Below are positions 20,609 to 45,965 of a stretch of DNA of 64,000 nt, one piece after another. The stretch spans positions 869 through 64,868 of the forward strand of contig JBEQBQ010000002.1 in NCBI GenBank assembly GCA_041639695.1, read 5' to 3'. The number at the start of each line of letters is the position of its first letter. Position 1 is the stretch's first letter. The notes below the pieces were generated by a model that searched no databases, had not been told where the DNA came from, and saw only the letters and a list, made by a program, of their open reading frames with translations. Position numbers and translations under genes: made by a program. This stretch comes from Candidatus Nanohaloarchaea archaeon. Its GTDB lineage: Archaea > Nanohalarchaeota > Nanosalinia > Nanosalinales > Nanosalinaceae.

Positions 20609-21106
20609 TCAGCAGAAGTTACCTCCCGAATTGAAGCAGTTAATGGTGTCGGATGTCTCGTAGGTTCCGGTCAATCTCACCAGCTTCGAATCGCTGTTAG
20701 AGGGGAAAGGCTCAGTTGTGTTTATAGGAATCATATCTTGTGGGTCAATATATACCTGATCAGATCTCGAGTTTAAGAACTCCCAGCTGGTTGAACCGTC
20801 CGATAATGGCCGTCCCTCAATATAAATATTCCAAAGCCTGTTTTCTTCAGGGTCTTGGATTTCAAGGCTTCTTTCTCCAGTATTCCTCACGTTAATAATT
20901 ATATGGCCGTTGGAGCCTTTGTAGCCGTTTTCTATATTCATGGAGGACTGTATTTTTCTCTGGTTTTCGGAAACCCGGTCTGCTGAATTGTCCTGAACGT
21001 TTTCCTGTATGCTCTGTAGAAATACGAAAGCTGAACCTGTTGCTGCAACACTTATACCAAGAAGCAGAACTGCTCCGATTACGGGTGTGAGTCCTTTCCT
21101 ATTCAT
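20609..21106 (-). CDS. archaeal type IV pilin (Pilin_N/DUF1628-type N-terminus)
   Basis: MNRKG|LTPVIGAVLLLGISVAATGSAF; paralog of 19997..20560. Confidence 0.75.
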   Translation of the reverse strand: MNRKGLTPVIGAVLLLGISVAATGSAFVFLQSIQENVQDNSADRVSENQRKIQSSMNIENGYKGSNGHIIINVRNTGERSLEIQDPEENRLWNIYIEGRPLSDGSTSWEFLNSRSDQVYIDPQDMIPINTTEPFPSNSDSKLVRLTGTYETSDTINCFNSGGNFC

Positions 21107-21824
21107 CGTTCATTTTGTCAAACTTCTTTCTGAGCTTCCTGATGTTGTCGTTGCCTGAGTTCCCTCTGTTATTCTTTGGCTGGTGGTTCTGTCGATTACC
21201 TTGTGCTTGATTGCCTTGTCGTTGCTGGTTCTGATTCTGGCTCTGCTGACTATTTCGGCCTGATTGTTGTCTTTGATTGCCTCTGTTTACATTTAGATCT
21301 GGTCCGGACCTCTGTTTCTGTCTCTTATTGTCCAACGTTTGATCCTTGTTTTGGGAGGTGTAGGATCTCTTAATGCTCTTGTTAAGTTGTTCGAGATTAT
21401 TGATTACCTGTTCGTTAGAATCTTTGATGTCATCGGCAACCCCTTGCATCTCGTTTCCTACGGCTTCTGCAACCCGGTTATGTACATCGCTGATAACTTC
21501 TCCTTCAAGGTCTGTCTCGGAAGCTTCGTTCAGAAGATCCATGAATGAGTTCATGTTGTCCACAACTTCCTCCATTCTGTGCGTGAGGTCTTCCACGGAG
21601 TTCTTCAGTTCGTGTGTCGACTCGGTCATGTCGTTGACGATTTTCTGGTTCGACTTCATGATGTCTAGAACATCGCGCACGAGCTCATCGTTTCGTCCGC
21701 CTGACTCGGTTTTCTGGGCCTCCATCTCATCTATTCTTCTTTCAAGCTTTCTGATTGGTCCTACAGGAACGACCTCGTAGTCGTCCTCATCTCCGCCGCC
21801 GAGTTCCACTTCGTCCTTTGACAT
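21099..21824 (-). CDS. coiled-coil protein with basic Q/N/R-rich C-terminal tail, first gene of the pilus operon
   Basis: 241 aa. Acidic helical N-terminal two thirds, then ...QRQQSGRNSQQSQNQNQQRQGNQAQGNRQNHQPKNNRGNSGN. Overlaps the next gene by 8 nt. Confidence 0.55.
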   Translation of the reverse strand: MSKDEVELGGGDEDDYEVVPVGPIRKLERRIDEMEAQKTESGGRNDELVRDVLDIMKSNQKIVNDMTESTHELKNSVEDLTHRMEEVVDNMNSFMDLLNEASETDLEGEVISDVHNRVAEAVGNEMQGVADDIKDSNEQVINNLEQLNKSIKRSYTSQNKDQTLDNKRQKQRSGPDLNVNRGNQRQQSGRNSQQSQNQNQQRQGNQAQGNRQNHQPKNNRGNSGNDNIRKLRKKFDKMNDE

Positions 21825-21938: not shown

Positions 21939-22976
21939 CTAACGAATCATCGACTTGCTGATAGTACAAAACGTTTTACGCGGTGCTCCAACGATGTTAT
22001 CGTCTGAATTAAGGTTTAAGTATTGTATTTCATAGCTCTTTGATGAGTCTAATTTTCGCTCTCCGGTTAGCACTATGGAGTGGGTTTCGGTATTGCTCGC
22101 GCCTTGTTCGACGTTTATGAAATCTTTATTGTCGGTAACATTCCTAAAAACTCCAATAAGGCGGTCTCCGTCCGAGAAACTATTCACAGTAATCTCGGCA
22201 CTGATTCGGTAGTGCCCTGTCTCTGGCGGAGAAAATTGGTTATTTGCTAGGTCAAAGTCACTGGTAACGTCTGTCACTTTGTTATCCCAGGTAACGGTCA
22301 CGCGACCGTTAGCCGTATTATAAGACTGGCTACTGGTTTTTTCAACTTCGATGAGAACTTCATCAGTAACATCTAAATTGGCTGTACTGAGTGAGCCAAA
22401 CTCTCCTTCGGTTGAGGCGTCCCAGTTACTGCCATCTGATATGAATGACAGCGACCATCCTGCGTTCGCGACGGCTTTCGAGGCTTCCCCGCCAGGGTCG
22501 ATCGTTTCAGAGCCTTCGGTGTCAACGGTGACGCTGTTCGCACCGCTTATGTTGACGATGTCGATTTTGTTGCCTTGGGTGGTGTCGGTAGTTCCAAGCG
22601 TGACTGTGACTGGACCGTTGCTAGTGTCAGCGTAGATGGCGTCTTCGCCGTTCGTTGTATAGCTTGTTCTGTTGGCTGAGTCGATTACTTCCGTATTTTT
22701 ACTGACTTCTTTATCATTTTGGAATATTCCGTTCTTGGTTAGTTTTAGTCCGGATGCGGAGGCTAAGCCTATTGCTCCGAGGCCTGCGCTAGCTACTCCG
22801 GCTTTCTTCAGAAAACTTCTTCGTGATATTTCTTTCTGTTCTCTGACCTTTCCAGTTATCTTTTTTTCTTTAATTATTTTCTTTTTCTTATTCTCGTCAT
22901 TTAGTCTTTCTTCGAGCCTCTCCTCTACCTTTTTCTCCACAAGTTTCTCTAACTTTTCATCGTCTACAGAGGTCAT
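21939..22976 (-). CDS. coiled-coil-leader / twin-arginine-signal secreted protein with C1q/TNF-like C-terminal head (family member 1)
   Basis: 345 aa. EKLEKLVEKKVEERLEERL..., RR at residues 52-53 (ISRRSFLKKAGVASAGLGAIGLASASG|LKL). Confidence 0.7.
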   Translation of the reverse strand: MTSVDDEKLEKLVEKKVEERLEERLNDENKKKKIIKEKKITGKVREQKEISRRSFLKKAGVASAGLGAIGLASASGLKLTKNGIFQNDKEVSKNTEVIDSANRTSYTTNGEDAIYADTSNGPVTVTLGTTDTTQGNKIDIVNISGANSVTVDTEGSETIDPGGEASKAVANAGWSLSFISDGSNWDASTEGEFGSLSTANLDVTDEVLIEVEKTSSQSYNTANGRVTVTWDNKVTDVTSDFDLANNQFSPPETGHYRISAEITVNSFSDGDRLIGVFRNVTDNKDFINVEQGASNTETHSIVLTGERKLDSSKSYEIQYLNLNSDDNIVGAPRKTFCTISKSMIR

Positions 22977-36927: not shown

Positions 36928-37266
36928 ATGAATAGCTGGAGAGCCGGAGGTATCGCCTTATTAGCCATATTTCTAGCTGCTCTAGCTACCGCTCCCACCG
37001 TACAACACCATCCGTTCTCACAGATTTTTCCGTCAGACCAGGATCTCAACTTTGGAGAATACGATGCGTTTAATATGACAGAAGTTAACCTGGCGAACGG
37101 AGCTATTTTCACAGGCAACGTGGTCAGAAACGCTGGAAGATCGATTGATATTATTAGATACCTAAATACTGGAAATGTAGAGATACCTAACGGCAATCTA
37201 GATCTGAAAGGCAACAACATTACTTCTTCATCTGGAGGTGAGATATGTGTCGGAGAATATTGTTGA
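36928..37266 (+). CDS. small Sec-signal secreted protein ending in a CxxxxC motif (module copy B)
   Basis: 112 aa. HPFSQIFPSDQDLN, NGNLDLKGNNITSS, C-terminal EICVGEYC. Confidence 0.6.
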   Translation: MNSWRAGGIALLAIFLAALATAPTVQHHPFSQIFPSDQDLNFGEYDAFNMTEVNLANGAIFTGNVVRNAGRSIDIIRYLNTGNVEIPNGNLDLKGNNITSSSGGEICVGEYC

Positions 37267-38155
37267 AATTGATAAAGAAGAATTAGAGGGACTGATTGAG
37301 AGTAAAGTTGAAGAAAGAGTAGAGGAGAGAGTACAGAAAGAGCTTGAGAAAGGAAAAAGTACTAAGAAAGAGTCCGAAAGCGGTATGTCGAGAAGAGGTT
37401 TTTTAAAGAAGCTTGGAGCTGGAGCAGTAGGTTTAGGCGCTCTTTCGCTGTCAGCCTCGGCATTAAACGTTAGAAGTGACGACCTGACATTCTACGGAGC
37501 TGATTCATCTCAGGAGTTAGAGGTGCTTGATGGAGGTCCTGTGAACATCAAAAACGCCAATTTGCAGTTAAATGGAAATAGTATTGAAGGGGTAGAATAT
37601 CTGAAGTTAAATAACATAGAGTTTGGAAGCTTGCCGACTGAGGAGTTCGTAATAGGTATAGATAACAGCGAGTCCCCGAAATATTATCATAATGGTTCTT
37701 GGAGGAAATTCTGGACCTCAAAAAACGATGGAGACGGAAGCGGGCTAAACGCTGACATGGTGGATGGCGAGGAACCGCCTTTTGGTCAGATGCCGTCGGG
37801 AGCTATTGTCATGTGGTCTGGCTCTATCTCGAACATTCCCTCAGGATGGGTTCTCTGTGACGGCAATAATGGCACGCCTGACCTCCGAGATCGTTTCGTG
37901 GTGGGTGCAGGCAACTCCTATAATGTTGGAAATACGGGAGGGGAAGCCTCACATAATCTTACGGAAAGCGAGATGCCTTCACATAATCATGGCATAAAGG
38001 AGGTAAGTAATGTTAACGATTCAAATATAGGGGAAGGATTTACGCACAACGACGGCGATACAAGCTATATCAATTTCTCGCAGGATGCTGGAGGCGATAG
38101 CGCTCACGAAAACCGACCGCCTTACCATGCGCTAGCCTATATTCAGAAGGTGTAA
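37247..38155 (+). CDS. coiled-coil-leader / twin-arginine-signal secreted protein with phage tail-collar-like C-terminal domain (family member 3)
   Basis: GTG 37247 gives MSENIVEIDKEELEGLIESKVEERVEERV, which aligns with member 4 (the ORF is open from 37238). RR at 49-50 (MSRRGFLKKLGAGAVGLGALSLSASA|L). GDGSGLNADMVDG. GAIVMWSGSISNIPSGWVLCDGNNGTPDLRDRFVVGAG...MPSHNH. Confidence 0.75.
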   Translation: MSENIVEIDKEELEGLIESKVEERVEERVQKELEKGKSTKKESESGMSRRGFLKKLGAGAVGLGALSLSASALNVRSDDLTFYGADSSQELEVLDGGPVNIKNANLQLNGNSIEGVEYLKLNNIEFGSLPTEEFVIGIDNSESPKYYHNGSWRKFWTSKNDGDGSGLNADMVDGEEPPFGQMPSGAIVMWSGSISNIPSGWVLCDGNNGTPDLRDRFVVGAGNSYNVGNTGGEASHNLTESEMPSHNHGIKEVSNVNDSNIGEGFTHNDGDTSYINFSQDAGGDSAHENRPPYHALAYIQKV

Positions 38156-38158
38156 ATT

Positions 38159-38578
38159 ATGACTCATAAATGCTCAAGATGTGGTGAAGAACTAGGCCGG
38201 GGGAAGGAAGTCAAAGATAAAGCTCGTTACATCGAATCTCACGACATGGAAACTGAGACTGAAAGAGAGCAGATTATTGCTTTAAGGCATACTGACAAGA
38301 CAAGGCAAATCCGGGACATATTGGTAGATGAGCAGGGTTTGAATGTTGTTCAGGCAAACAGAGTGATGGCAAGGAAAGACAAGTCCTATCTAGATAAGAT
38401 CGACAAGTCATTCACTGAATCGGATTTTAAGCAAGAAGAAGTCTCTAACCCGGTTTCTCCAGAGGAGGATCCAGAGGTCGTCCAAGTTGATACAAAACTG
38501 ATTACAGAAAAGGAGGCTGAGAAAGCTCTTGTATGTAAGCAAGAATGTGTTAAGGAGCAGGATGAAATCATATGGTAA
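38159..38578 (+). CDS. hypothetical protein with N-terminal CxxC
   Basis: 139-aa acidic ORF starting 4 nt after the previous stop; MTHKCSRCGEEL. Confidence 0.45.
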   Translation: MTHKCSRCGEELGRGKEVKDKARYIESHDMETETEREQIIALRHTDKTRQIRDILVDEQGLNVVQANRVMARKDKSYLDKIDKSFTESDFKQEEVSNPVSPEEDPEVVQVDTKLITEKEAEKALVCKQECVKEQDEIIW

Positions 38579-38692
38579 GTCGTGTTTTCTAAGGATATTG
38601 GGATATTTGCTGCATATGGAAGGTCTTGAAAGGATATCTCCAGTAAAAACGACAATTTTAAACCCCAGAAAACTAAATTTTTTCTATAATTA

Positions 38693-39549
38693 ATGTCGGG
38701 CAAAATTGAGGTAGATCCTGAAGAACTTGAAAAGTTGGTTGAACGTAAGGTTGAGGAAAGACTAAAAGAACGGCTTGAGCAGGAAACTGTCGAAAACAGT
38801 AAAAATTCTGAAGACGGGATTTCGAGGCGAGGATTTCTGAAGAAACTTGGTGCTGGCGCCATGGGTTTAGGCGCGGTAAGTTTTTCATCCGTTAGTGCCT
38901 TAACTTTGTCAAAGAACTCTATCAGAAATAATGGTCAGTCCATCTCTTCTGGAGGTCTATTTGATTTGAATAGCTACCTCTCGCGGTCCGGCGGTAATCT
39001 ATCTGGTCCACTAACACTTGGAGGGGACTTGAAAGCAAATGATGGCGAGTTGATTTGGGATGAGTCTAATTCCTTTGTACCGGCTTCCGTCTTAGAACAG
39101 TCTGGGATCGACCATGACAATCTGTCCAGTATTTCTGCTGATGATCATCATCCGGAGGTTTCTGCCGGAACGAATATTTCCGTTGATTCAAGTAACACGG
39201 TTGGTGTTTCTCCTCAGGGCCATACAAGCGTTTAAATGCGGATATGGTTGATGGAAATCATGCAGATGAGTTAAAGGGTATTACTGTATCTGATATTAAA
39301 CACGAGTCCGGAAGTACAGGTGTATCCGTTGGAGGAGGTTCCTACACTATCAACCTTTCGAATAATTATAGGACTCTTACCGGGTTGAGTACTGATATTC
39401 AGAACTCTAATTGGGATACAAACAACAATAATGCAGATGCTGCATGGATTAGTGATATTGATCTTTCAAACAACCAAGTAACTATCAGCTATACGAATGA
39501 TGAGAACAATACCGGTACTTTGTATTGGGATGTTTGGGGAATCGTATAA
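38693..39549 (+). pseudogene. coiled-coil-leader / twin-arginine-signal fibre-like gene split by a 1-nt frameshift (family member 4)
   Basis: ORFs 38693..39235 and 39244..39549 are in different frames. The second frame reads ...RLNADMVDG upstream of its ATG. Restoring one G at about 39229-39231 gives ...PQGHTSGLNADMVDGNHADEL, matching GSGLNADMVDG of member 3. Confidence 0.65.
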
Positions 39550-39637
39550 TGCCTTTTGAATTCTTGAGCCTATTAATAATCTGATTTCAGACTCATCCGG
39601 CATAAAGTATTTACATTAGAATATTGTATCTTCTACC

Positions 39638-39865
39638 ATGGGATTAATTGGTTTACAGGAAGCAGTTCTGATAGGTGCTGCAGCGATCGCTCTAATCATG
39701 GGTCCAAAGAAACTTCCACAGCTAGCACGTTCTCTAGGTGAATCAAAGAAAGAGTACAAGGAATCTATGAAGGAGGCTGAGGAGGCGGTTGATGAAGCGG
39801 CTCCTGATGTTGACGAGGAGATGGAGGAAGTAGAGAAAGAAGTAAAGGATGTAAAGGAAGAATAG
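39638..39865 (+). CDS. tatA: Sec-independent (Tat) translocase protein TatA/E
   Basis: 75 aa. MGLIGLQEAVLIGAAAIALIMGPKKLPQLARSLGES followed by an acidic tail. Confidence 0.85.
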   Translation: MGLIGLQEAVLIGAAAIALIMGPKKLPQLARSLGESKKEYKESMKEAEEAVDEAAPDVDEEMEEVEKEVKDVKEE

Positions 39866-39873
39866 GATAAGTT

Positions 39874-40560
39874 ATGCAGACCCTACAGGATCACGTCAGG
39901 GAACTCCGGAAACGATTAAAGGTTGCAGGAGCTTTCTTTCTTCTAGCTGTCGGAGTATGTTTCTATTTTTCCTCCCAAGTTCTTAACTGGCTTCAATCAG
40001 ATCTAGGCTTCGCACTACACGCTTTAACAGCTTATGAAGTACTTTACACGGAGTTAATGATTGCTTTCCTTGGAGGATTTCTATTCAGTCTTCCAATAGT
40101 TCTATATGAAATAATTGCGTTTATGCGTCCGGGTTTAAAGGAGAAAGAGTATCTAGTGATGAGAAATTATTTGCCGTTCTCGGTAATACTTTTCGTAGGT
40201 GGGGCTGTGTTTGCATACAGTTACATAGTCAAAGCCAGTCTCGCGTTCTTCAACTCGACAACCGAATCTGCGAACGTCGCCGCGGTCTGGGGCCTCCAGA
40301 ACACGGTAGGTTTCGCCTTAAGGATCTCAGCTTTCACCGGCATAATATTCCAACTTCCCATCGTCTCGGTACTCCTAGCTAGGGCAGGGCTCCTGAACGT
40401 TGATATGATGAAAAGATACAGGTCGTACTTCATAGTGTCGATTCTCGTAATCTCAGCTTTGGCAACACCGCCAGACCTTATATCTCAGGCACTGGTAACT
40501 GGACCCGTTATCGGTCTTTATCAGATCAGTATTTTACTGGTGTCTCGGTTCGAGGACTAA
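39874..40560 (+). CDS. tatC: Tat translocase protein TatC
   Basis: 228 aa. HVRELRKRL N-terminus and six predicted TM helices; immediately downstream of tatA. Confidence 0.85.
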   Translation: MQTLQDHVRELRKRLKVAGAFFLLAVGVCFYFSSQVLNWLQSDLGFALHALTAYEVLYTELMIAFLGGFLFSLPIVLYEIIAFMRPGLKEKEYLVMRNYLPFSVILFVGGAVFAYSYIVKASLAFFNSTTESANVAAVWGLQNTVGFALRISAFTGIIFQLPIVSVLLARAGLLNVDMMKRYRSYFIVSILVISALATPPDLISQALVTGPVIGLYQISILLVSRFED

Positions 40561-40662
40561 AACTTGTTAAATAGAGCGAGCAAGAATAAATGTATGAACG
40601 GGTTGAAGTAGTTTATCCTTCGAAGGTTCCCGGCTTTCTGGCGTGGTTCCGGCTCAGAAAGC

Positions 40663-41313
40663 TTGGCGAAGGAATCATATTCGGGGACAAATATTTCCCG
40701 TAGATCGTTCCTCAGAAAGCTAGGTGCGGGCGCCATAAGTGTAGGTGCTCTAGGTTTAACTCCTGCTTATTCGGGCCTCAAATTAAGTTCTGGCGGGATT
40801 ACAAAGGACGGTACAAGTTCTTTCTGGCATGAGGGAACATTCAGCAAATCAAACTATCTCCCTGTTGATGGTTCACAGGATATGGCGGGAGATCTATCTA
40901 TCTATCGCCGGAGATCTAAAAACTGATGGCAGTACCACTATATGGGATAGCTCTAATGCTCAAATCCCTGCTTCGATTATAGAGCAGGGGGATGGAAGCC
41001 AGCTTGATGCTGATACCGTCGATGGTTCGGAGCCGGGCGAAATAGGGTTGCAGGTTTATTCGGATAGTTTTACAGTTCCTGCAGGACAGCCCTATCGTGA
41101 GAACACGGGTCTAACTCCTTCCGAGTGGTTTCTGTAGAAGTGATACCTATTACAGGGGATGTAGCGGTTGAACAGGTTAAATCGACTAGCAGCCCTGCAG
41201 AAGTGGGTTATTACATCGTCTATGACTCTGCAAATGGGATGGAAATAGATCTTTCTATCCAGAATAATACTTCGCAAGACGTGGATCTTTATGTGAAAGT
41301 TATTCATAACTAA
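40663..41313 (+). pseudogene. twin-arginine-signal fibre-like gene with two frameshifts and no coiled-coil leader (family member 5)
   Basis: Three ORF pieces in frames 1/2/1: 40663..40926, 40829..41137, 41125..41313. TTG start; ISRRSFLRKLGAGAISVGALGLTPAYS|GLKL. The middle piece carries GDLKTDGSTTIWDSSNAQIPASIIEQGDGSQLDADTVDG. Confidence 0.65.
40892..40906 (+). repeat. (ATCT)3ATC tetranucleotide tract at the first frameshift of member 5
   Basis: gATCTATCTATCTATCg read directly. Removing one 4-nt unit joins ...DMAGDLSI to AGDLKTDGS... in frame. Confidence 0.8.
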
Positions 41314-41425
41314 AAGGATTGGGATGTTTTCCTAGCAATATGTTTAAGGGTGCTTCTAGGTAGTCGAGGGGCGGGTAGGACGCCAAACCACAAGATAGTT
41401 AAACAACCTATTGAATTAGGGTGTT

Positions 41426-42152
41426 ATGACGGGCGATGTTAAAGAGGTCAAAAAAGAGAAAAAATCCTCTGAAATTGGCCGACGTTCTTTCCTTAGGAAA
41501 TTAGGAGCTGGTGCTATAGGTATTGGGATCTTTTCACTCCCTTCAGTGTCTGCTCTGGATATTAAAAGTAGTACGGGCCTTGAGGTCTTCAGCGGTAACA
41601 AGAAATACCTGGATGTAGAGTCCGGAGGGCCTGTAAGCGTCAATAATACAGGACTCAACGTTAGTGGAGGTCTGGATGTGGGGGTCAGGAAAGTTTTACA
41701 CTGATCTGGGTATATTGTCTGATGTTTTTCTGGCTGCGGATAGCGCATGGTTTACAGCGAACGCGAAGGATGTCTCTGGAAGCGGAGGAGTAAAAATGCA
41801 GGATGGTGGAACGACTAAAATGGCTGTGGAATGGTCTAACGGTTATCAGTACGGAAGAATAACGGATGAAGGTGCCGGAGAGGACTGGATGGTTTTCAAT
41901 CCTGGTGGTCCTGTAGATGTAAAACGTAGTCTGAACGTGAACGGCAACAAGGTCTGGCACGCCGGAAACGACGGTTCCGGAAGCGGTTTGGTGGCCAACA
42001 AAGTTACAGGGACGAACGGTGGCAATAGGTTAGGAGGCCAGATGCCTGTTTATCAGACTAAGACCGATGCCCAAAACGACTCAGATGTCGTCGAGGGAAC
42101 TATAGTGTACGTAAAAGAGGATAACACTTTCTACTACGAGGACGGTACGTGA
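41426..42152 (+). pseudogene. twin-arginine-signal fibre-like gene split at a G5 tract (family member 6)
   Basis: ORFs 41426..41704 and 41664..42152. EIGRRSFLRKLGAGAIGIGIFSLPSVSA|L. Removing one G from GGGGG (41680-41684) gives ...GGLDVGSGKFYTDLGILSD... in one frame. Confidence 0.65.
41680..41684 (+). repeat. G5 homopolymer at the frameshift of member 6
   Basis: gatgtGGGGGtcagg read directly. Confidence 0.8.
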
Positions 42153-42991: not shown

Positions 42992-43051
42992 ATTCTCGAA
43001 AGTTTCGAACCTCTTTTAAAAAGTTAGGGTTTCCATTTCTGAATATGCAAC

Positions 43052-44380
43052 GTGATAAACACTATGAAAGTATACACTATAGGCGGTTACGAGGAAGTCG
43101 GCCGCAACATGACAGCAGTGGAAGTTGACGGAGAAGCCGTCATCTTCGACATGGGATTCGAAATGGAAGAAGTAATTAACGCAGACGGGGAAGTGGATCA
43201 AATGACCACCAACCAGACTTTAGAGACCGGCGCAATCCCGATCGACGAAGTTCTCTACGAAAACGACGTAGAAGTAAAAGCAATCATCATCGGACACGGA
43301 CACCTTGACCATGTCGGAGCGATTCCAAAGCTCGCAGGAGCTTACGACGCACCGATCGTCTGTACGCCTTACACCAAGAAAATTGTTGAAAACAATATCG
43401 ATGGCGACAGGAAGAACATCGACAACGATGTAATCGGAGTCGAGAAAGGAGACGAGTACGAGATTTCAGATGATCTTGAACTCGAATTCATGCACGTCAA
43501 CCACTCCATCCCTCAGGCAACACTATCACTTCTCAAAACACCTGAAGGCGGAGTAGTCTACGGAAACGACATGAAAATCGACTACAGCCCGGTAATCGAA
43601 GAAACAACAGACATCGAAAGACTCAAATCTGCGGGAGAAGAAGGCATCAAACTGATGATTCCCGGAACCACAAACGTATGTGACGAAGGAAGATGCCGTT
43701 CCGAAAGATCGGTTGAGCAGGAACTCGAAGACGTAATGAACTCGTGCTACGCCAACGGCGGCGCAGTAGTAATGAGTACTTTCTCAAGCCAGATCTCCAG
43801 ACTCAACTCGATTATCGACGCCAACAACGGCAGGAGAAAGATCGCATTTGTTGGAAGAAGCCTCAAGGAGTACACACAGGCAGCAGAAGAGCTAGGGTTG
43901 ATCGATCTTTCAGATGTAAAGGTTGTTTCCTACTTCGATGAGGTACAGGACTTGATGAACCGTGTCTCCGGAAACAAGGAAGACTGGTTGATCGTTGCTA
44001 CAGGAAACCAGGGAGAGCCAGGAGCACAGATGGACAAGCTGGCGACAGGACAGTACCCGTTCGACTTCGAGAAAGGAGACCACGTAATCTTCTCCTCGAG
44101 AACAATCCCGACACCTCCAACAGAGGCAAACAGGTACAACCTAGAGAAGAAACTGAAAGAACAGGGAGTAAGAGTTTACCCTGGAGTCCACACCTCAGGA
44201 CACGCCAAGAAAGAAGATCACAGAGACTTCATCAACTACCTCCAGCCTGAAAACATCGTTCCTTCGCATGGAACAATCCAGAAGCTTGGAGACTACGTTG
44301 AACTAGCAAGACAGGAAGGCTACACTCTAGAAGAGGACGTCTTTATCGGAGAGAACGGAAGAGTCATCGAAATAGAGTAA
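43052..44380 (+). CDS. rnj: ribonuclease J (beta-CASP metallo-beta-lactamase)
   Basis: 442 aa. IIGHGHLDHVGAIP (HxHxDH); size and layout of archaeal RNase J. Confidence 0.85.
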   Translation: MINTMKVYTIGGYEEVGRNMTAVEVDGEAVIFDMGFEMEEVINADGEVDQMTTNQTLETGAIPIDEVLYENDVEVKAIIIGHGHLDHVGAIPKLAGAYDAPIVCTPYTKKIVENNIDGDRKNIDNDVIGVEKGDEYEISDDLELEFMHVNHSIPQATLSLLKTPEGGVVYGNDMKIDYSPVIEETTDIERLKSAGEEGIKLMIPGTTNVCDEGRCRSERSVEQELEDVMNSCYANGGAVVMSTFSSQISRLNSIIDANNGRRKIAFVGRSLKEYTQAAEELGLIDLSDVKVVSYFDEVQDLMNRVSGNKEDWLIVATGNQGEPGAQMDKLATGQYPFDFEKGDHVIFSSRTIPTPPTEANRYNLEKKLKEQGVRVYPGVHTSGHAKKEDHRDFINYLQPENIVPSHGTIQKLGDYVELARQEGYTLEEDVFIGENGRVIEIE

Positions 44381-44400
44381 ACCTTCTTCCTCTCCACTTT

Positions 44401-44877
44401 TTATTTCTCTATTCTAAGTCTATCTCCCTTACTGATTGAATGATTTTCTGCGAAGTCCTGGTTTAATTCCACTACGTACTGGGCCGGCTCCTCGCTCCTG
44501 TAAGATGCAAGCTCGTCCTCCGGGGTGTTAGGTTCCGGATCGGCTTGTTCAATATTGAGTACAGTGTAGTTCGAGTCGAGGAAGATAATATCGAGCGGTA
44601 TGTATGTGTTTTTCATCCAGAACCATCTATTTCCCTCAGATTCGTACTTGAAAAGCATTCCATGATTCTTTTCCAGTTTGGTTCGGTTCATCAGGCCTTC
44701 TCGGCGCTCGGATGAGGTATCAGCGACCTCCAAGTTTACCTCGGCTAAAGTTTCGTTTCCAGAGATAAAGTTAGCCTTAACATTTTGGTCGTCTAGCAGA
44801 TGATTTGTTGCTCCCATGCCAACCAAGGCTGCTACAGAGCCAACTAGAAGTAATCTATAGATTTTTGACATTTCCAT
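44401..44877 (-). CDS. DUF192 domain protein with N-terminal signal/anchor
   Basis: 158 aa. REGLMNRTKLEKNHGMLFKYE...WMKNTYIPLDIIFLD, the DUF192 signature. Confidence 0.7.
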   Translation of the reverse strand: MEMSKIYRLLLVGSVAALVGMGATNHLLDDQNVKANFISGNETLAEVNLEVADTSSERREGLMNRTKLEKNHGMLFKYESEGNRWFWMKNTYIPLDIIFLDSNYTVLNIEQADPEPNTPEDELASYRSEEPAQYVVELNQDFAENHSISKGDRLRIEK

Positions 44878-45063: not shown

Positions 45064-45552
45064 TACTTTAGTATAGTTAGTTTAAAGGAAGAGGTTCAAG
45101 AACTCAAGGAACGTGTCTCTGAGCTTGAAGAAGAGAATAAAAGGCTTAGGAAAGACTCTATTGAAGAAAAAAATGTTTCTAGGAGGTCATTCCTGAAAAA
45201 ACTTGGTGCAGGGGTGATAGGTTTAGGCGCTCTTTCCGTTCCTACTTCCGCATTAAACATCAAAAGCAGTAAAGGGCTCGAAGTTTTTGCCAACAACTCA
45301 AACTACTTCAGTGTTGAAACAGGGGGCCCTGTGAAAGTGAAAAATACTGATTTAGAAATCGGTAAGGATCTGCTGGCTAAAGACGGTGAGCTGATATGGG
45401 ATGAATCAAACTCGCAGATACCTGCTAATAGGATAGAGCAAGGTGAGGGGAGCCAGTTAAATGCGGATACTGTTGACGGTGTTGAGGCAAATTCTCTCGG
45501 GGCTTCTGCATTAAATATTGAAGGCTTTGCTCCCAACTTTGGTGGAAAATAA
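45064..45552 (+). pseudogene. coiled-coil-leader / twin-arginine-signal fibre-like gene lacking any ATG/GTG/TTG before the signal (family member 7)
   Basis: Frame open from 45064: ..I-VSLKEEVQELKERVSELEEENKRLRKDSIEEKNVSRRSFLKKLGAGVIGLGALSVPTSA|LNIK... The first canonical start is GTG 45214, inside the signal h-region. Later DGELIWDESNSQIPANRIEQGEGSQLNADTVDG. Confidence 0.6.
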
Positions 45553-45965
45553 TGACTATTAGTTCTAAAATGTACAGGCATACGGACTCAGGATCCTATA
45601 ATACAGATGGAGAAATAATAGTGTCTTCCTCCAGTTTCACAGTCTCTTCAGGAAATATGATATACCTGGATAAGTGTGGTGTATAGGCCACATTAAAGAC
45701 TACGGATTCCGGTAATGAGGCTTATGCTGAGTGTAGAATGTTAAAGAGAGATGTAAATACAGGTGTTCTGGTTCAGAAAAGTGGGGTTGTGGCCTCAACT
45801 GCTTCAACGTCCTATAGTACTGTTAAAGCACAGGGAAGCTTTGGAGGTTATCTGACTGACTCTATGGAGCTGGTACTACAATATATTCTTTATATATACG
45901 GTAATAATCCTTCTGCCTATTCTAATGATTTTAATGCTGCTCTTTCAGGCAGGCAAGTGGTTTGA
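45552..45965 (+). pseudogene. partner ORF of member 7, interrupted by an in-frame TAG
   Basis: ATG 45552 overlaps the upstream stop (TAATG). A 44-codon ORF ends at TAG 45684-45686. ORF 45738..45965 is in the same frame with no other stop between. Confidence 0.5.

What the first reader, a model, noticed from the sequence alone, without database searches (positions are those of the whole stretch)
40888..40918. Tetranucleotide tract (ATCT)3ATC creates the first frameshift of member 5; loss of one unit restores the conserved protein
The sequence reads ggagATCTATCTATCTATCgccggagatctaaaa. As written, the frame reads DMAGDLSIYRRRSKN* and stops. Deleting one 4-nt unit gives DMAGDLSIAGDLKTDGSTTIWDSSNAQIPASIIEQGDGSQLDADTVDG. 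That sequence is collinear with members 4 and 7 (GDLKANDGELIWDESNS..., KDLLAKDGELIWDESNS...). Short tandem tetranucleotide tracts are classic slipped-strand switches in bacterial surface genes. An equivalent switch in an archaeal surface-protein gene would be unusual. The copy number is low, at three to four units, so a one-off duplication is equally possible.
Basis: seen in the sequence. Interest (0 to 1): 0.62.

Follow-up and report, generated by a model that had tools for sequence, protein, structure and literature searches.

The report
Four-base slippage frameshift in decaying archaeal gene
A 15-base ATCT repeat does knock one copy of a secreted, phage-tail-fibre-like protein gene of a salt-lake nano-archaeon out of frame, but it looks like an ordinary one-off slippage mutation in a gene copy that is decaying, not an evolved on/off switch.

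Summary
Window 40892-40906 is a perfect (ATCT)3.75 tract, the only period-4 tract of 12 nt or more in 64 kb (expected about 0.02). It shifts gene 40663-41313 (+) from frame 1 to frame 2. Removing exactly 4 nt gives ...DMAGDLSIAGDLKTDGSTTIWD..., which fits two paralogs and two intact Nanohaloarchaea homologs better than a 1-nt or 22-nt repair.

The switch reading is not supported:
- The tract has under four units, and the restoring state would be an 11-nt tract of a kind that occurs at the chance rate.
- No other simple repeats occur in the window or in 69 kb of related loci.
- The gene very probably has a second frame break at 41120-41134.
- Paralogs 38693-39549 and 41426-42152 are also frameshifted, one of them not at a repeat, and a partner ORF carries an in-frame TAG.
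- About 54 kb of other genes look intact.
- Family members in relatives are intact and lack repeats.

No ortholog of this gene exists in any collection searched. Only one sequencing run holds the organism, at about 10x and as contigs only, so read-level variation could not be tested. An independent assembly of that run gives the identical sequence.

Best reading (about 0.7): a one-off slipped-strand duplication in a decaying paralog. Interest is low.

The parts
40892..40906 (+). Perfect tetranucleotide tract (ATCT)3.75. The extra 4-nt unit shifts the gene from frame 1 to frame 2.
40663..40926 (+). Piece 1 of member 5 (frame 1, TTG start, 87 aa). It holds the twin-arginine signal ISRRSFLRKLGAGAISVGALGL (RR motif from 40699), then GITKDGTSSFWHEG...YLPVDGSQDMAGDLSI, then out-of-frame YRRRSKN and TGA at 40924-40926.
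   Evidence: codon-usage profile
40907..41137 (+). Piece 2 (frame 2): the conserved core AGDLKTDGSTTIWDSSNAQIPASIIEQGDGSQLDADTVDGSEPGEIGLQVYSDSFTVPAGQPYRENTGLTPSEWFL*, with TAG at 41135-41137.
   Evidence: the part after the DADTVDG motif is homologous to the member 4 C-domain, p=0.0015
41120..41134 (+). Interval that must hold the second frame break (frame 2 back to frame 1, equivalent to a 1-nt loss). The hard limits are the frame-1 TGA at 41098-41100 and the frame-2 TAG at 41135-41137. Homology of NTGLTP to member 4 narrows it to this interval.
   Evidence: inferred; no homolog spans the site
41101..41313 (+). Piece 3 (frame 1, 70 codons stop to stop): ...VVSVEVIPITGDVAVEQVKSTSSPAEVGYYIVYDSANGMEIDLSIQNNTSQDVDLYVKVIHN*. 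It has strong coding potential and is the probable C-terminal half of the C-domain. Less likely, it is a separate 62-aa ORF starting at GTG 41125.
   Evidence: no true homologs found
40881..40918 (+). Two 16-nt near-repeats, TATGGCGGGAGATCTA and TATCGCCGGAGATCTA, 22 nt apart (18 nt before the insertion). They encode the family's AGDLSI / AGDLKT pseudo-repeat and are not a recent 22-nt duplication.
39638..40560 (+). tatA (39638-39865) and tatC (39874-40560) directly upstream. This is context: the export route for the family.
   Evidence: Pfam TatA_B_E 1.4e-11 and TatC 3e-54; same order in L002
38693..39549 (+). Paralog member 4, split by a -1 frameshift near 39230 (agcGtttaaat). The site is not in a simple repeat.
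   Evidence: intact 399-aa homolog in L003
41426..42152 (+). Paralog member 6, split by a +1 frameshift at the G5 run 41680-41684.

Best explanation
Member 5 (40663-41313, +) is one paralog of a family found in Nanohaloarchaea. Family members carry a twin-arginine (Tat) signal and phage-tail-fibre-like motifs, and they cluster around tatA-tatC.

Its ancestor carried an 11-nt (ATCT)2.75 stretch across the codons CTA TCT ATC (L-S-I), of a kind that arises by chance. During replication the nascent strand slipped back by one 4-nt unit. The unit was copied twice and the tract grew to 15 nt. This puts everything downstream in the +1 frame. Translation from the start now ends after 87 residues at TGA 40924-40926.

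The gene also has a second, independent break near 41120-41134. Its neighbours in the family carry further lesions: a -1 in member 4, a +1 in the G5 run of member 6, and an in-frame TAG in the ORF after member 7. The tract is therefore best read as one ordinary slippage mutation in a redundant gene copy under relaxed selection, that is, a recent pseudogene. It may still be segregating in the population.

Shown: the tract, the frame change, the best repair, the lesions in paralogs and the intact relatives. Inferred: the slippage mechanism, that the second break is a lesion, and that the gene is non-functional.
For: - The tract and frame change are read directly.
- The -4 repair is best against four relatives, with no gap at the tract itself (A1 and A3).
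- The 15-nt tract is unique (0.02 expected), while 11-nt tracts occur at the chance rate, 4 seen against 3.6 expected. That pattern fits a single expansion of a chance tract.
- No other simple repeats at or above threshold occur in the window or in 69 kb of related Nanohaloarchaea loci.
- The best codon-usage frame goes 1 to 2 at about 40875 and 2 to 1 at about 41090. The frame-1 tail scores +7 to +11.5.
- The frame-2 part after DADTVDG is homologous to the start of the member 4 C-domain (p=0.0015), and that domain runs about 50 aa further.
- Members 4 and 6 show frame transitions by the same method. There is a TAG at 45684-45686 in the partner ORF.
- Outside the family, ORFs cover 95.7% of 1-36900. 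Excluding the first gene (1-1789), which my script put in the wrong frame, about 0.3% of windows in intact genes show a frame anomaly, nearly all in one Q/N-rich tail.
- Family members in relatives are uninterrupted ORFs of 145-676 aa.
- An independent Logan assembly of the only run that holds the organism reproduces 38500-42102 with 0 differences and no variant contig.
Against: - No raw reads were available, so a minority of cells with 2.75 or 4.75 units cannot be excluded. Depth is only about 10x.
- No ortholog exists to show the ancestral tract length directly.
- The second frameshift rests on coding potential and domain length, not on a homolog that spans it. Piece 3 could be a separate small ORF that overlaps member 5's stop, since overlapping downstream partner ORFs occur elsewhere in this family (window 42149 and 45552; L005 6330).
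- Two of the four frameshifts in the family do lie at short repeats (this tract and a G5 run), which is also what a set of weak switches would look like.
- The coding signal in all pieces is still strong, so the lesions are recent and the gene is not long dead.
Confidence: 0.7

Rival explanations
1. True contingency (phase-variable) locus. The ATCT tract gains and loses units at a raised rate by slipped-strand mispairing, so the fibre-like surface protein is reversibly switched on and off in the population. The G5 run in member 6 may be a second such switch.
For: The tract is in the coding region of a predicted exported, tail-fibre-like protein, the kind of gene that phase variation usually controls. 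Loss of one unit restores the conserved core. Lesions are confined to this family, and 2 of 4 frameshifts are at short repeats. Coding potential is intact in all pieces. An unchecked note from this scan reports a 4-6 unit tetranucleotide tract that varies in another organism.
Against: There are only 3.75 units, and the ON state would be 2.75 units, a chance-level tract. The criteria reviewed in PMC11868660 need switching in both directions above about 1e-5, and the review warns that short tracts arise by chance. Known tetranucleotide loci have many more units (own knowledge; De Bolle et al. 2000 is listed in that review). Simple repeats are not enriched in the window or in related loci. The second break would keep the gene broken after a switch. 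The lesions in member 4 and the TAG are not at repeats. No variant contig was found.
Confidence: 0.1
2. Artefact. The extra 4 nt, and the other indels in the family, are sequencing or assembly errors, or a chimeric consensus of co-existing strains. The real gene would be intact.
For: Depth is low, about 10x, in a metagenome from a single run. All four frame breaks are small indels, and one is in a homopolymer. Variable surface-gene islands are where strain mixtures confuse assemblers.
Against: An independent k-mer assembly (Logan) of the run gives an identical 17.4-kb contig with 0 differences and 0 gaps over 38500-42102. The reads are therefore accurate and they support the tract. Random errors at the family's rate, about 4 per 4.7 kb, would have broken most of the other roughly 54 kb of genes, but those are intact; the chance of all 4 falling in the family is about 4e-5. 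An in-frame TAG is not an indel error. Depth is flat across the region, so no paralogs were collapsed.
Confidence: 0.07
3. Recoding. The gene is expressed as it stands by programmed +1 and then -1 ribosomal frameshifting, or by transcriptional slippage.
For: The two shifts compensate (frame 1 to 2 to 1). All three pieces keep their coding signal.
Against: All relatives and paralogs that are intact read the homologous region in one frame, with no repeat or slippery site there. No known +1 slippery or hungry-codon context produces the conserved ...SIAGDLK... sequence. Two different programmed shifts in one 215-codon gene would have no precedent. This is inference from sequence only.
Confidence: 0.02
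4. The lesion is a footprint (4-bp target-site duplication) left by an excised mobile element, or part of a 22-nt tandem duplication.
For: A 4-nt direct duplication is what some transposon excisions leave. 16-nt near-repeats lie 22 nt apart.
Against: The duplicated unit extends a pre-existing perfect repeat, which is the signature of slippage. The 22-nt units match at only 15 of 22 positions, and the -22 repair scores worst and removes six conserved residues. The near-repeat encodes the pseudo-repeat G-x-L-x-[IL] / G-D-L shared by the whole family. No mobile-element sequence is nearby.
Confidence: 0.03

Closest known systems
Tetranucleotide contingency loci of Haemophilus influenzae and Neisseria (for example lic1A (CAAT)n and mod (AGTC)n; own knowledge, criteria reviewed in PMC11868660)
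   Same: A perfect tetranucleotide repeat lies inside the coding region of a surface-exposed protein gene. The unit number sets the reading frame, and one unit fewer restores the conserved protein.
   Different: There are 3.75 units here, against typically many more. The in-frame state would be a chance-level 11-nt tract. No length polymorphism could be shown. The genome window has no other such tracts. The gene has a probable second break. The organism is a DPANN archaeon, and my literature searches found no description of SSR phase variation in DPANN archaea.
Ordinary slipped-strand mispairing indels that create pseudogenes (Levinson and Gutman 1987, own knowledge; short repeats as indel hotspots in prokaryotic coding regions, PMC3315296)
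   Same: A one-unit expansion of a short pre-existing repeat gives a frameshift and an early stop. It is accompanied by other small indels in the same gene and in paralogs.
   Different: Nothing essential differs. The only special point is the host gene family and organism.
Decay of redundant surface-protein paralogs in host-dependent, small-genome microbes (for example pseudogene-rich adhesin families; PMC8111173 describes pseudogenised autotransporters in Brucella)
   Same: Lesions are concentrated in a multi-copy family of exported, adhesin-like proteins, while housekeeping genes are intact.
   Different: The family here is archaeal, Tat-targeted and tail-fibre-like. Whether the broken copies serve as a recombination reservoir is unknown, and no sign of gene conversion was seen (nucleotide identity between paralogs is low).

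Membership tests
SSR-mediated phase-variable (contingency) locus | A simple sequence repeat in the ORF or promoter whose unit number sets the reading frame or expression | tested here: met
   (ATCT)3.75 at 40892-40906 shifts frame 1 to frame 2
SSR-mediated phase-variable (contingency) locus | A tract long enough to be hypermutable in both directions (rate above about 1e-5) and clearly beyond chance tracts | tested here: not met
   There are under four units, and the ON state would be 11 nt, which occurs at the chance rate (4 seen, 3.6 expected). Criteria come from PMC11868660. Rates themselves were not measurable.
SSR-mediated phase-variable (contingency) locus | Tract-length polymorphism among cells, reads or close strains | tested here: inconclusive
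   Only run X1 holds the organism, and only as contigs. One contig is identical and there is no variant. No ortholog or near-identical DNA exists elsewhere.
SSR-mediated phase-variable (contingency) locus | A single unit change yields an intact, full-length gene | tested here: not met
   The -4 repair restores the core, but a second frame change at 41120-41134 remains. Caveat: there is roughly a 25% chance that piece 3 is a separate ORF.
SSR-mediated phase-variable (contingency) locus | Simple repeats over-represented in the genome or at the same site in related genes | tested here: not met
   No other simple repeat at or above threshold occurs in the 64-kb window or in 69 kb of related loci. 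Homologs have no repeat at the site.
Frameshift pseudogene | ORF interrupted relative to intact homologs | tested here: met
   Intact homologs include the L002 180-aa gene in the same tatA-tatC-X-RNase J position and the L003 399-aa gene
Frameshift pseudogene | More than one independent disabling lesion | tested here: inconclusive
   The second break is supported by the codon-usage profile, the open frame and the length of the homologous domain. No homolog spans it.
Frameshift pseudogene | Loss of expression or relaxed selection | not testable with these tools
   There are no RNA runs and no orthologs for dN/dS
Tat-signal, tail-fibre-like protein family of Nanohaloarchaea | S/T-R-R-x-F-L-K twin-arginine motif followed by a hydrophobic stretch | tested here: met
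   ISRRSFLRKLGAGAISVGALGL; R13, R14, F16, L17, K19 and G21 are invariant in A1. tatA and tatC are adjacent.
Tat-signal, tail-fibre-like protein family of Nanohaloarchaea | Shared shaft motifs (G-D-L-K-x-D-G-x-x-I-W-D and G-x-G-S-x-L-[DN]-A-D-x-V-D-G) | tested here: met
   Both motifs are present, but only in frame 2
Phage tail collar / tail fibre domain proteins (PF07484, phrog_8469) | A significant profile match | tested here: not met
   Repaired member 5 has no Pfam or PHROG hit. Only paralog 37238-38155 matches (phrog_8469, 3.9e-29; Collar 4.2e-4, below the cut-off).
Programmed ribosomal frameshift gene | A shift site conserved in homologs, with a slippery or stimulatory context | tested here: not met
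   Homologs read straight through in one frame

The most novel reading that the evidence does not exclude
A DPANN ectosymbiont (Nanohaloarchaea) might run a small set of weak mutational switches. These would be a short ATCT tract in member 5 and a G5 run in member 6, possibly with others elsewhere in the genome. They would stochastically vary which Tat-exported, phage-tail-fibre-like proteins are displayed, perhaps to follow host or virus diversity. If so, this would be contingency-locus behaviour in an archaeon, working with tracts shorter than those of bacterial pathogens.
Probability: 0.08. Interest if true: 0.7.

Novelty: already known. Interest (0 to 1): 0.2.

Why it matters
As it stands this is a routine annotation point. 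Member 5 should be marked as a frameshifted pseudogene, and the tract as the site of a one-unit slippage insertion.

It would matter only if read-level data showed that the tract length varies. My literature searches found no description of slipped-strand phase variation of a surface protein in DPANN archaea. Such variation would bear on how these symbionts vary the proteins they use to contact hosts.

The wider pattern may deserve more attention than the tract itself. Lesions are confined to a Tat-linked, tail-fibre-like family that sits around tatA-tatC in a Nanohaloarchaeon.

Tried and rejected
1. 22-nt duplication. The 16-nt near-repeats at 40881 and 40903 suggested it. Rejected: the units match at only 15 of 22 positions, the -22 repair scores lowest, and it removes six residues conserved across the family.
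2. 1-nt insertion instead of 4 nt. It scores lower against all four relatives and needs a gap.
3. Orthologous tract in relatives. None was found by a protein search of 5.8 billion proteins (one 145-aa distant relative), genome contigs (five Nanohaloarchaea loci, best 45% identity), a metagenome DNA pattern (0 hits), a metagenome protein scan (matches covering little beyond the signal region) or viral contigs (0 hits).
4. Read-level variation. Only Logan contigs of one run exist, so this could not be tested.
5. Homologs of piece 3 to prove the second frameshift. An HMMER search of 1.84 billion representatives gave only repeat-protein hits, two Kelch-like and one fibre-like, that share a YDSA.G-like word. 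This was not informative.
6. Piece 3 against the tail of the member 4 C-domain. Not significant (p=0.35).
7. Recent gene conversion from a paralog as the source of the out-of-frame middle segment. Nucleotide identity to paralogs is too low.
8. Alternative genetic code or stop read-through. Frame 1 after the tract has many stops of all three kinds.
9. AlphaFold2 model of the intact L002 homolog. Mean pLDDT was 61 and pTM 0.28, too poor for a fold search, so none was run.
10. An apparent frame anomaly in gene 21099-21824 (-). It turned out to be a Q/N-rich low-complexity tail, not a lesion.
The rest of the genome could therefore not be searched for further simple repeats or family members.

Full report
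**1. The observation**

The window reads ...GAT ATG GCG GGA GAT CTA TCT ATC TAT CGC CGG AGA TCT AAA AAC TGA... from 40879. The perfect period-4 tract ATCTATCTATCTATC is 40892-40906.
- Tandem Repeats Finder reports it as 3.8 copies at 100% match, the only period-4 array in 64 kb.
- Dinucleotide-preserving shuffles give 0.01 matches to this 15-mer.
- A census of my own found that it is the only primitive period-4 tract of 12 nt or more. The expectation for 15 nt or more is 0.02. Tracts of 11 nt occur at the chance rate, 4 seen against 3.6 expected.

The tract is therefore real and longer than chance gives. An 11-nt precursor would be unremarkable.

**2. The gene**

Three-frame translation and ORF lists show member 5 in three pieces.
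- 40663-40926, frame 1, carries the twin-arginine signal ISRRSFLRKLGAGAISVGALGL.
- 40907-41137, frame 2, carries the conserved core AGDLKTDGSTTIWDSSNAQIPASIIEQGDGSQLDADTVDG....
- 41101-41313, frame 1 again, forms the tail.

I trained a codon-usage log-odds profile on long genes of the window. It switches best frame 1 to 2 at about 40875 and 2 to 1 at about 41090. The third piece scores +7 to +11.5.

**3. Which repair is right**

Removing 4 nt gives ...DMAGDLSIAGDLKTDG.... Against paralogs M4 and M7 and the intact homologs in loci L002 and L003, this repair scores 103/145/137/90. Removing 1 nt scores 92/136/130/79, and removing the 22 nt between two near-repeats scores 88/131/122/77. No alignment needs a gap at the tract itself with the -4 repair (alignments A1 and A3).

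The 16-nt near-repeats 22 nt apart encode the pseudo-repeat G-x-L-x-[IL] / G-D-L that every family member has. They are not a recent duplication.

**4. Organism and family**

The only public run that holds the sequence is a hypersaline-lake metagenome. A degenerate-pattern scan of one genome per species found relatives only in Nanohaloarchaea MAGs.

L002 is syntenic. It has tatA, tatC, one intact 180-aa family member and then RNase J. RNase J is 80% identical and TatC 55% identical to the window. In the window, tatA and tatC are confirmed by Pfam.

The intact paralog 37238-38155 matches phage tail-fibre and collar families (phrog_8469 at 3.9e-29). Member 5 itself has no profile hit. Viral contigs hold no relative.

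An AlphaFold2 model of the L002 homolog was too poor to use, with pLDDT 61.

**5. Is it a switch?**

Evidence against:
- (a) The tract has 3.75 units. The in-frame state would be 2.75 units, which is a chance-level tract. The review PMC11868660 requires switching in both directions above about 1e-5 and warns that short tracts arise by chance.
- (b) Simple repeats are not enriched. No mono-, di-, tri-, tetra-, penta- or hexanucleotide tract above modest thresholds occurs elsewhere in the window. The 69 kb of related loci hold only a (GAA)4 and an A8 run. Homologs have no repeat at the equivalent site.
- (c) A second break exists. The frame-2 part after DADTVDG is homologous to the start of the member 4 C-domain (p=0.0015). 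That domain runs on for about 50 residues in member 4. In member 5, frame 2 stops 5 codons later, exactly where a 70-codon frame-1 ORF with strong coding signal takes over. No homolog spans the junction, so I rate this break as real at about 0.75. The alternative is a separate 62-aa ORF that overlaps member 5's stop, and overlapping downstream partner ORFs do occur elsewhere in the family.
- (d) The family is broadly damaged. Member 4 has a -1 near 39230 that is not in a repeat. Member 6 has a +1 in G5 at 41680-41684. The ORF after member 7 has an in-frame TAG at 45684-45686. Member 7 has no ATG, GTG or TTG before its signal.
- (e) All family members in relatives are uninterrupted.

**6. Is it an artefact?**

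- Logan's independent assembly of the run gives one 17.4-kb contig identical to the window over 38500-42102. Depth is flat at about 10 and there is no variant contig at either break.
- Outside the family, ORFs cover 95.7% of 1-36900.
- Excluding the first gene (1-1789), which my script put in the wrong frame, about 0.3% of sliding windows in intact genes show a frame anomaly. Nearly all of them lie in one Q/N-rich tail.
- Four frameshifts in about 4.7 kb of family DNA and none in about 54 kb elsewhere has a chance of about 4e-5 under a uniform rate.

Random error is therefore unlikely. Contigs drop rare variants, so minority alleles remain untested.

**7. Mechanism**

The best reading is a one-unit backward slip of the nascent strand on a chance (ATCT)2.75 stretch. 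This added 4 nt and produced a +1 frame and a stop 6 codons later. It is one of several recent small lesions in a redundant, lineage-specific paralog.

L002 has a single gene where the window has members 5 and 6 plus a Gly-rich partner. The intact coding signal shows that the lesions are young. The allele may still be polymorphic.

**8. Limits**

No raw reads, no second sample and no ortholog were available. The decisive test is to count tract lengths in the raw reads or in amplicons.

**9. Verdict**

The lesion description is right and the switch interpretation is not supported. My odds are 0.7 for an ordinary slippage frameshift in a decaying paralog, 0.1 for a switch, 0.07 for an artefact, and small shares for the other readings. 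Interest is low at 0.2.

Noticed in passing
window 45067-45215: Member 7 (signal motif at 45181; reading frame open from about 45067) has no ATG, GTG or TTG upstream of its twin-arginine signal. The frame begins ...YFSIVSLKEEVQELKERV... with ATA at 45076. This may be a lost start codon or a non-canonical start. An A7 run lies at 45167-45173.
   Followed up: partly
window 45552-45965: The ORF that overlaps member 7's stop (ATG 45552) has an in-frame TAG at 45684-45686. A weak coding signal continues in the same frame on both sides, so this is possibly a nonsense lesion in a partner gene. It shows no BLASTP similarity to the partner ORF in L005.
   Followed up: partly
window 40653-40679 and 40711-40737: A 27-nt direct repeat (20 of 27 identical; 5 of 1000 shuffles reach the score). 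The upstream copy, in a different frame, encodes FRLRKLGEGII, which resembles the signal motif FLRKLGAGAI. It may be a remnant of a partial duplication of the 5' end of member 5.
   Followed up: partly
window 39638-40560; L002 66-984: tatA and tatC sit inside the cluster of their presumed substrates, and this arrangement is conserved in another Nanohaloarchaea MAG. A paper on cultured nanohaloarchaea found only a lone TatC and judged the Tat system probably inactive (PMC10266531). This lineage differs.
   Followed up: partly
window 37238-37400, 38693-38830, 22830-22976 (-); L001-L011: Most family members carry a 40-90 residue acidic coiled-coil-like segment (for example EELEKLVERKVEERLKERLEQE) before the RR motif. 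That is unusually long for the n-region of a Tat signal. Members 5 and 6 lack it.
   Followed up: no
window 36928-37266 vs L003 5301-5885: The small CxxxxC protein upstream of member 3 is 112 aa here and 194 aa in MAG_AT22. The difference looks like an in-frame loss of about 80 residues in the middle.
   Followed up: no
window 21099-21824 (-): The gene downstream of the minus-strand family member (21939-22976) ends in a long Q/N-rich low-complexity tail (...QRQQSGRNSQQSQNQNQQRQGNQAQGNRQNHQPKNNRGN...). This tail mimics a frame change in codon-usage scans.
   Followed up: yes
window 43018-44774 (run X1): Contigs of other, far more abundant populations match RNase J and the next gene at under 95% identity. 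Summed word depth is in the hundreds, against about 10 for this organism. The window's organism is a minor member of a community with many relatives, and none of them carries a member-5-like sequence at 80% identity or more.
   Followed up: no
window 41101-41310 vs P0004: Piece 3 (VGYYIVYDSANGMEIDL) weakly matches (E 2.3e-4) a motif, TGYYLEWDTHNGMQWV, that is repeated many times in a 1021-aa fibre-like repeat protein from a metagenome. This may be a shared short structural motif or a compositional match.
   Followed up: no
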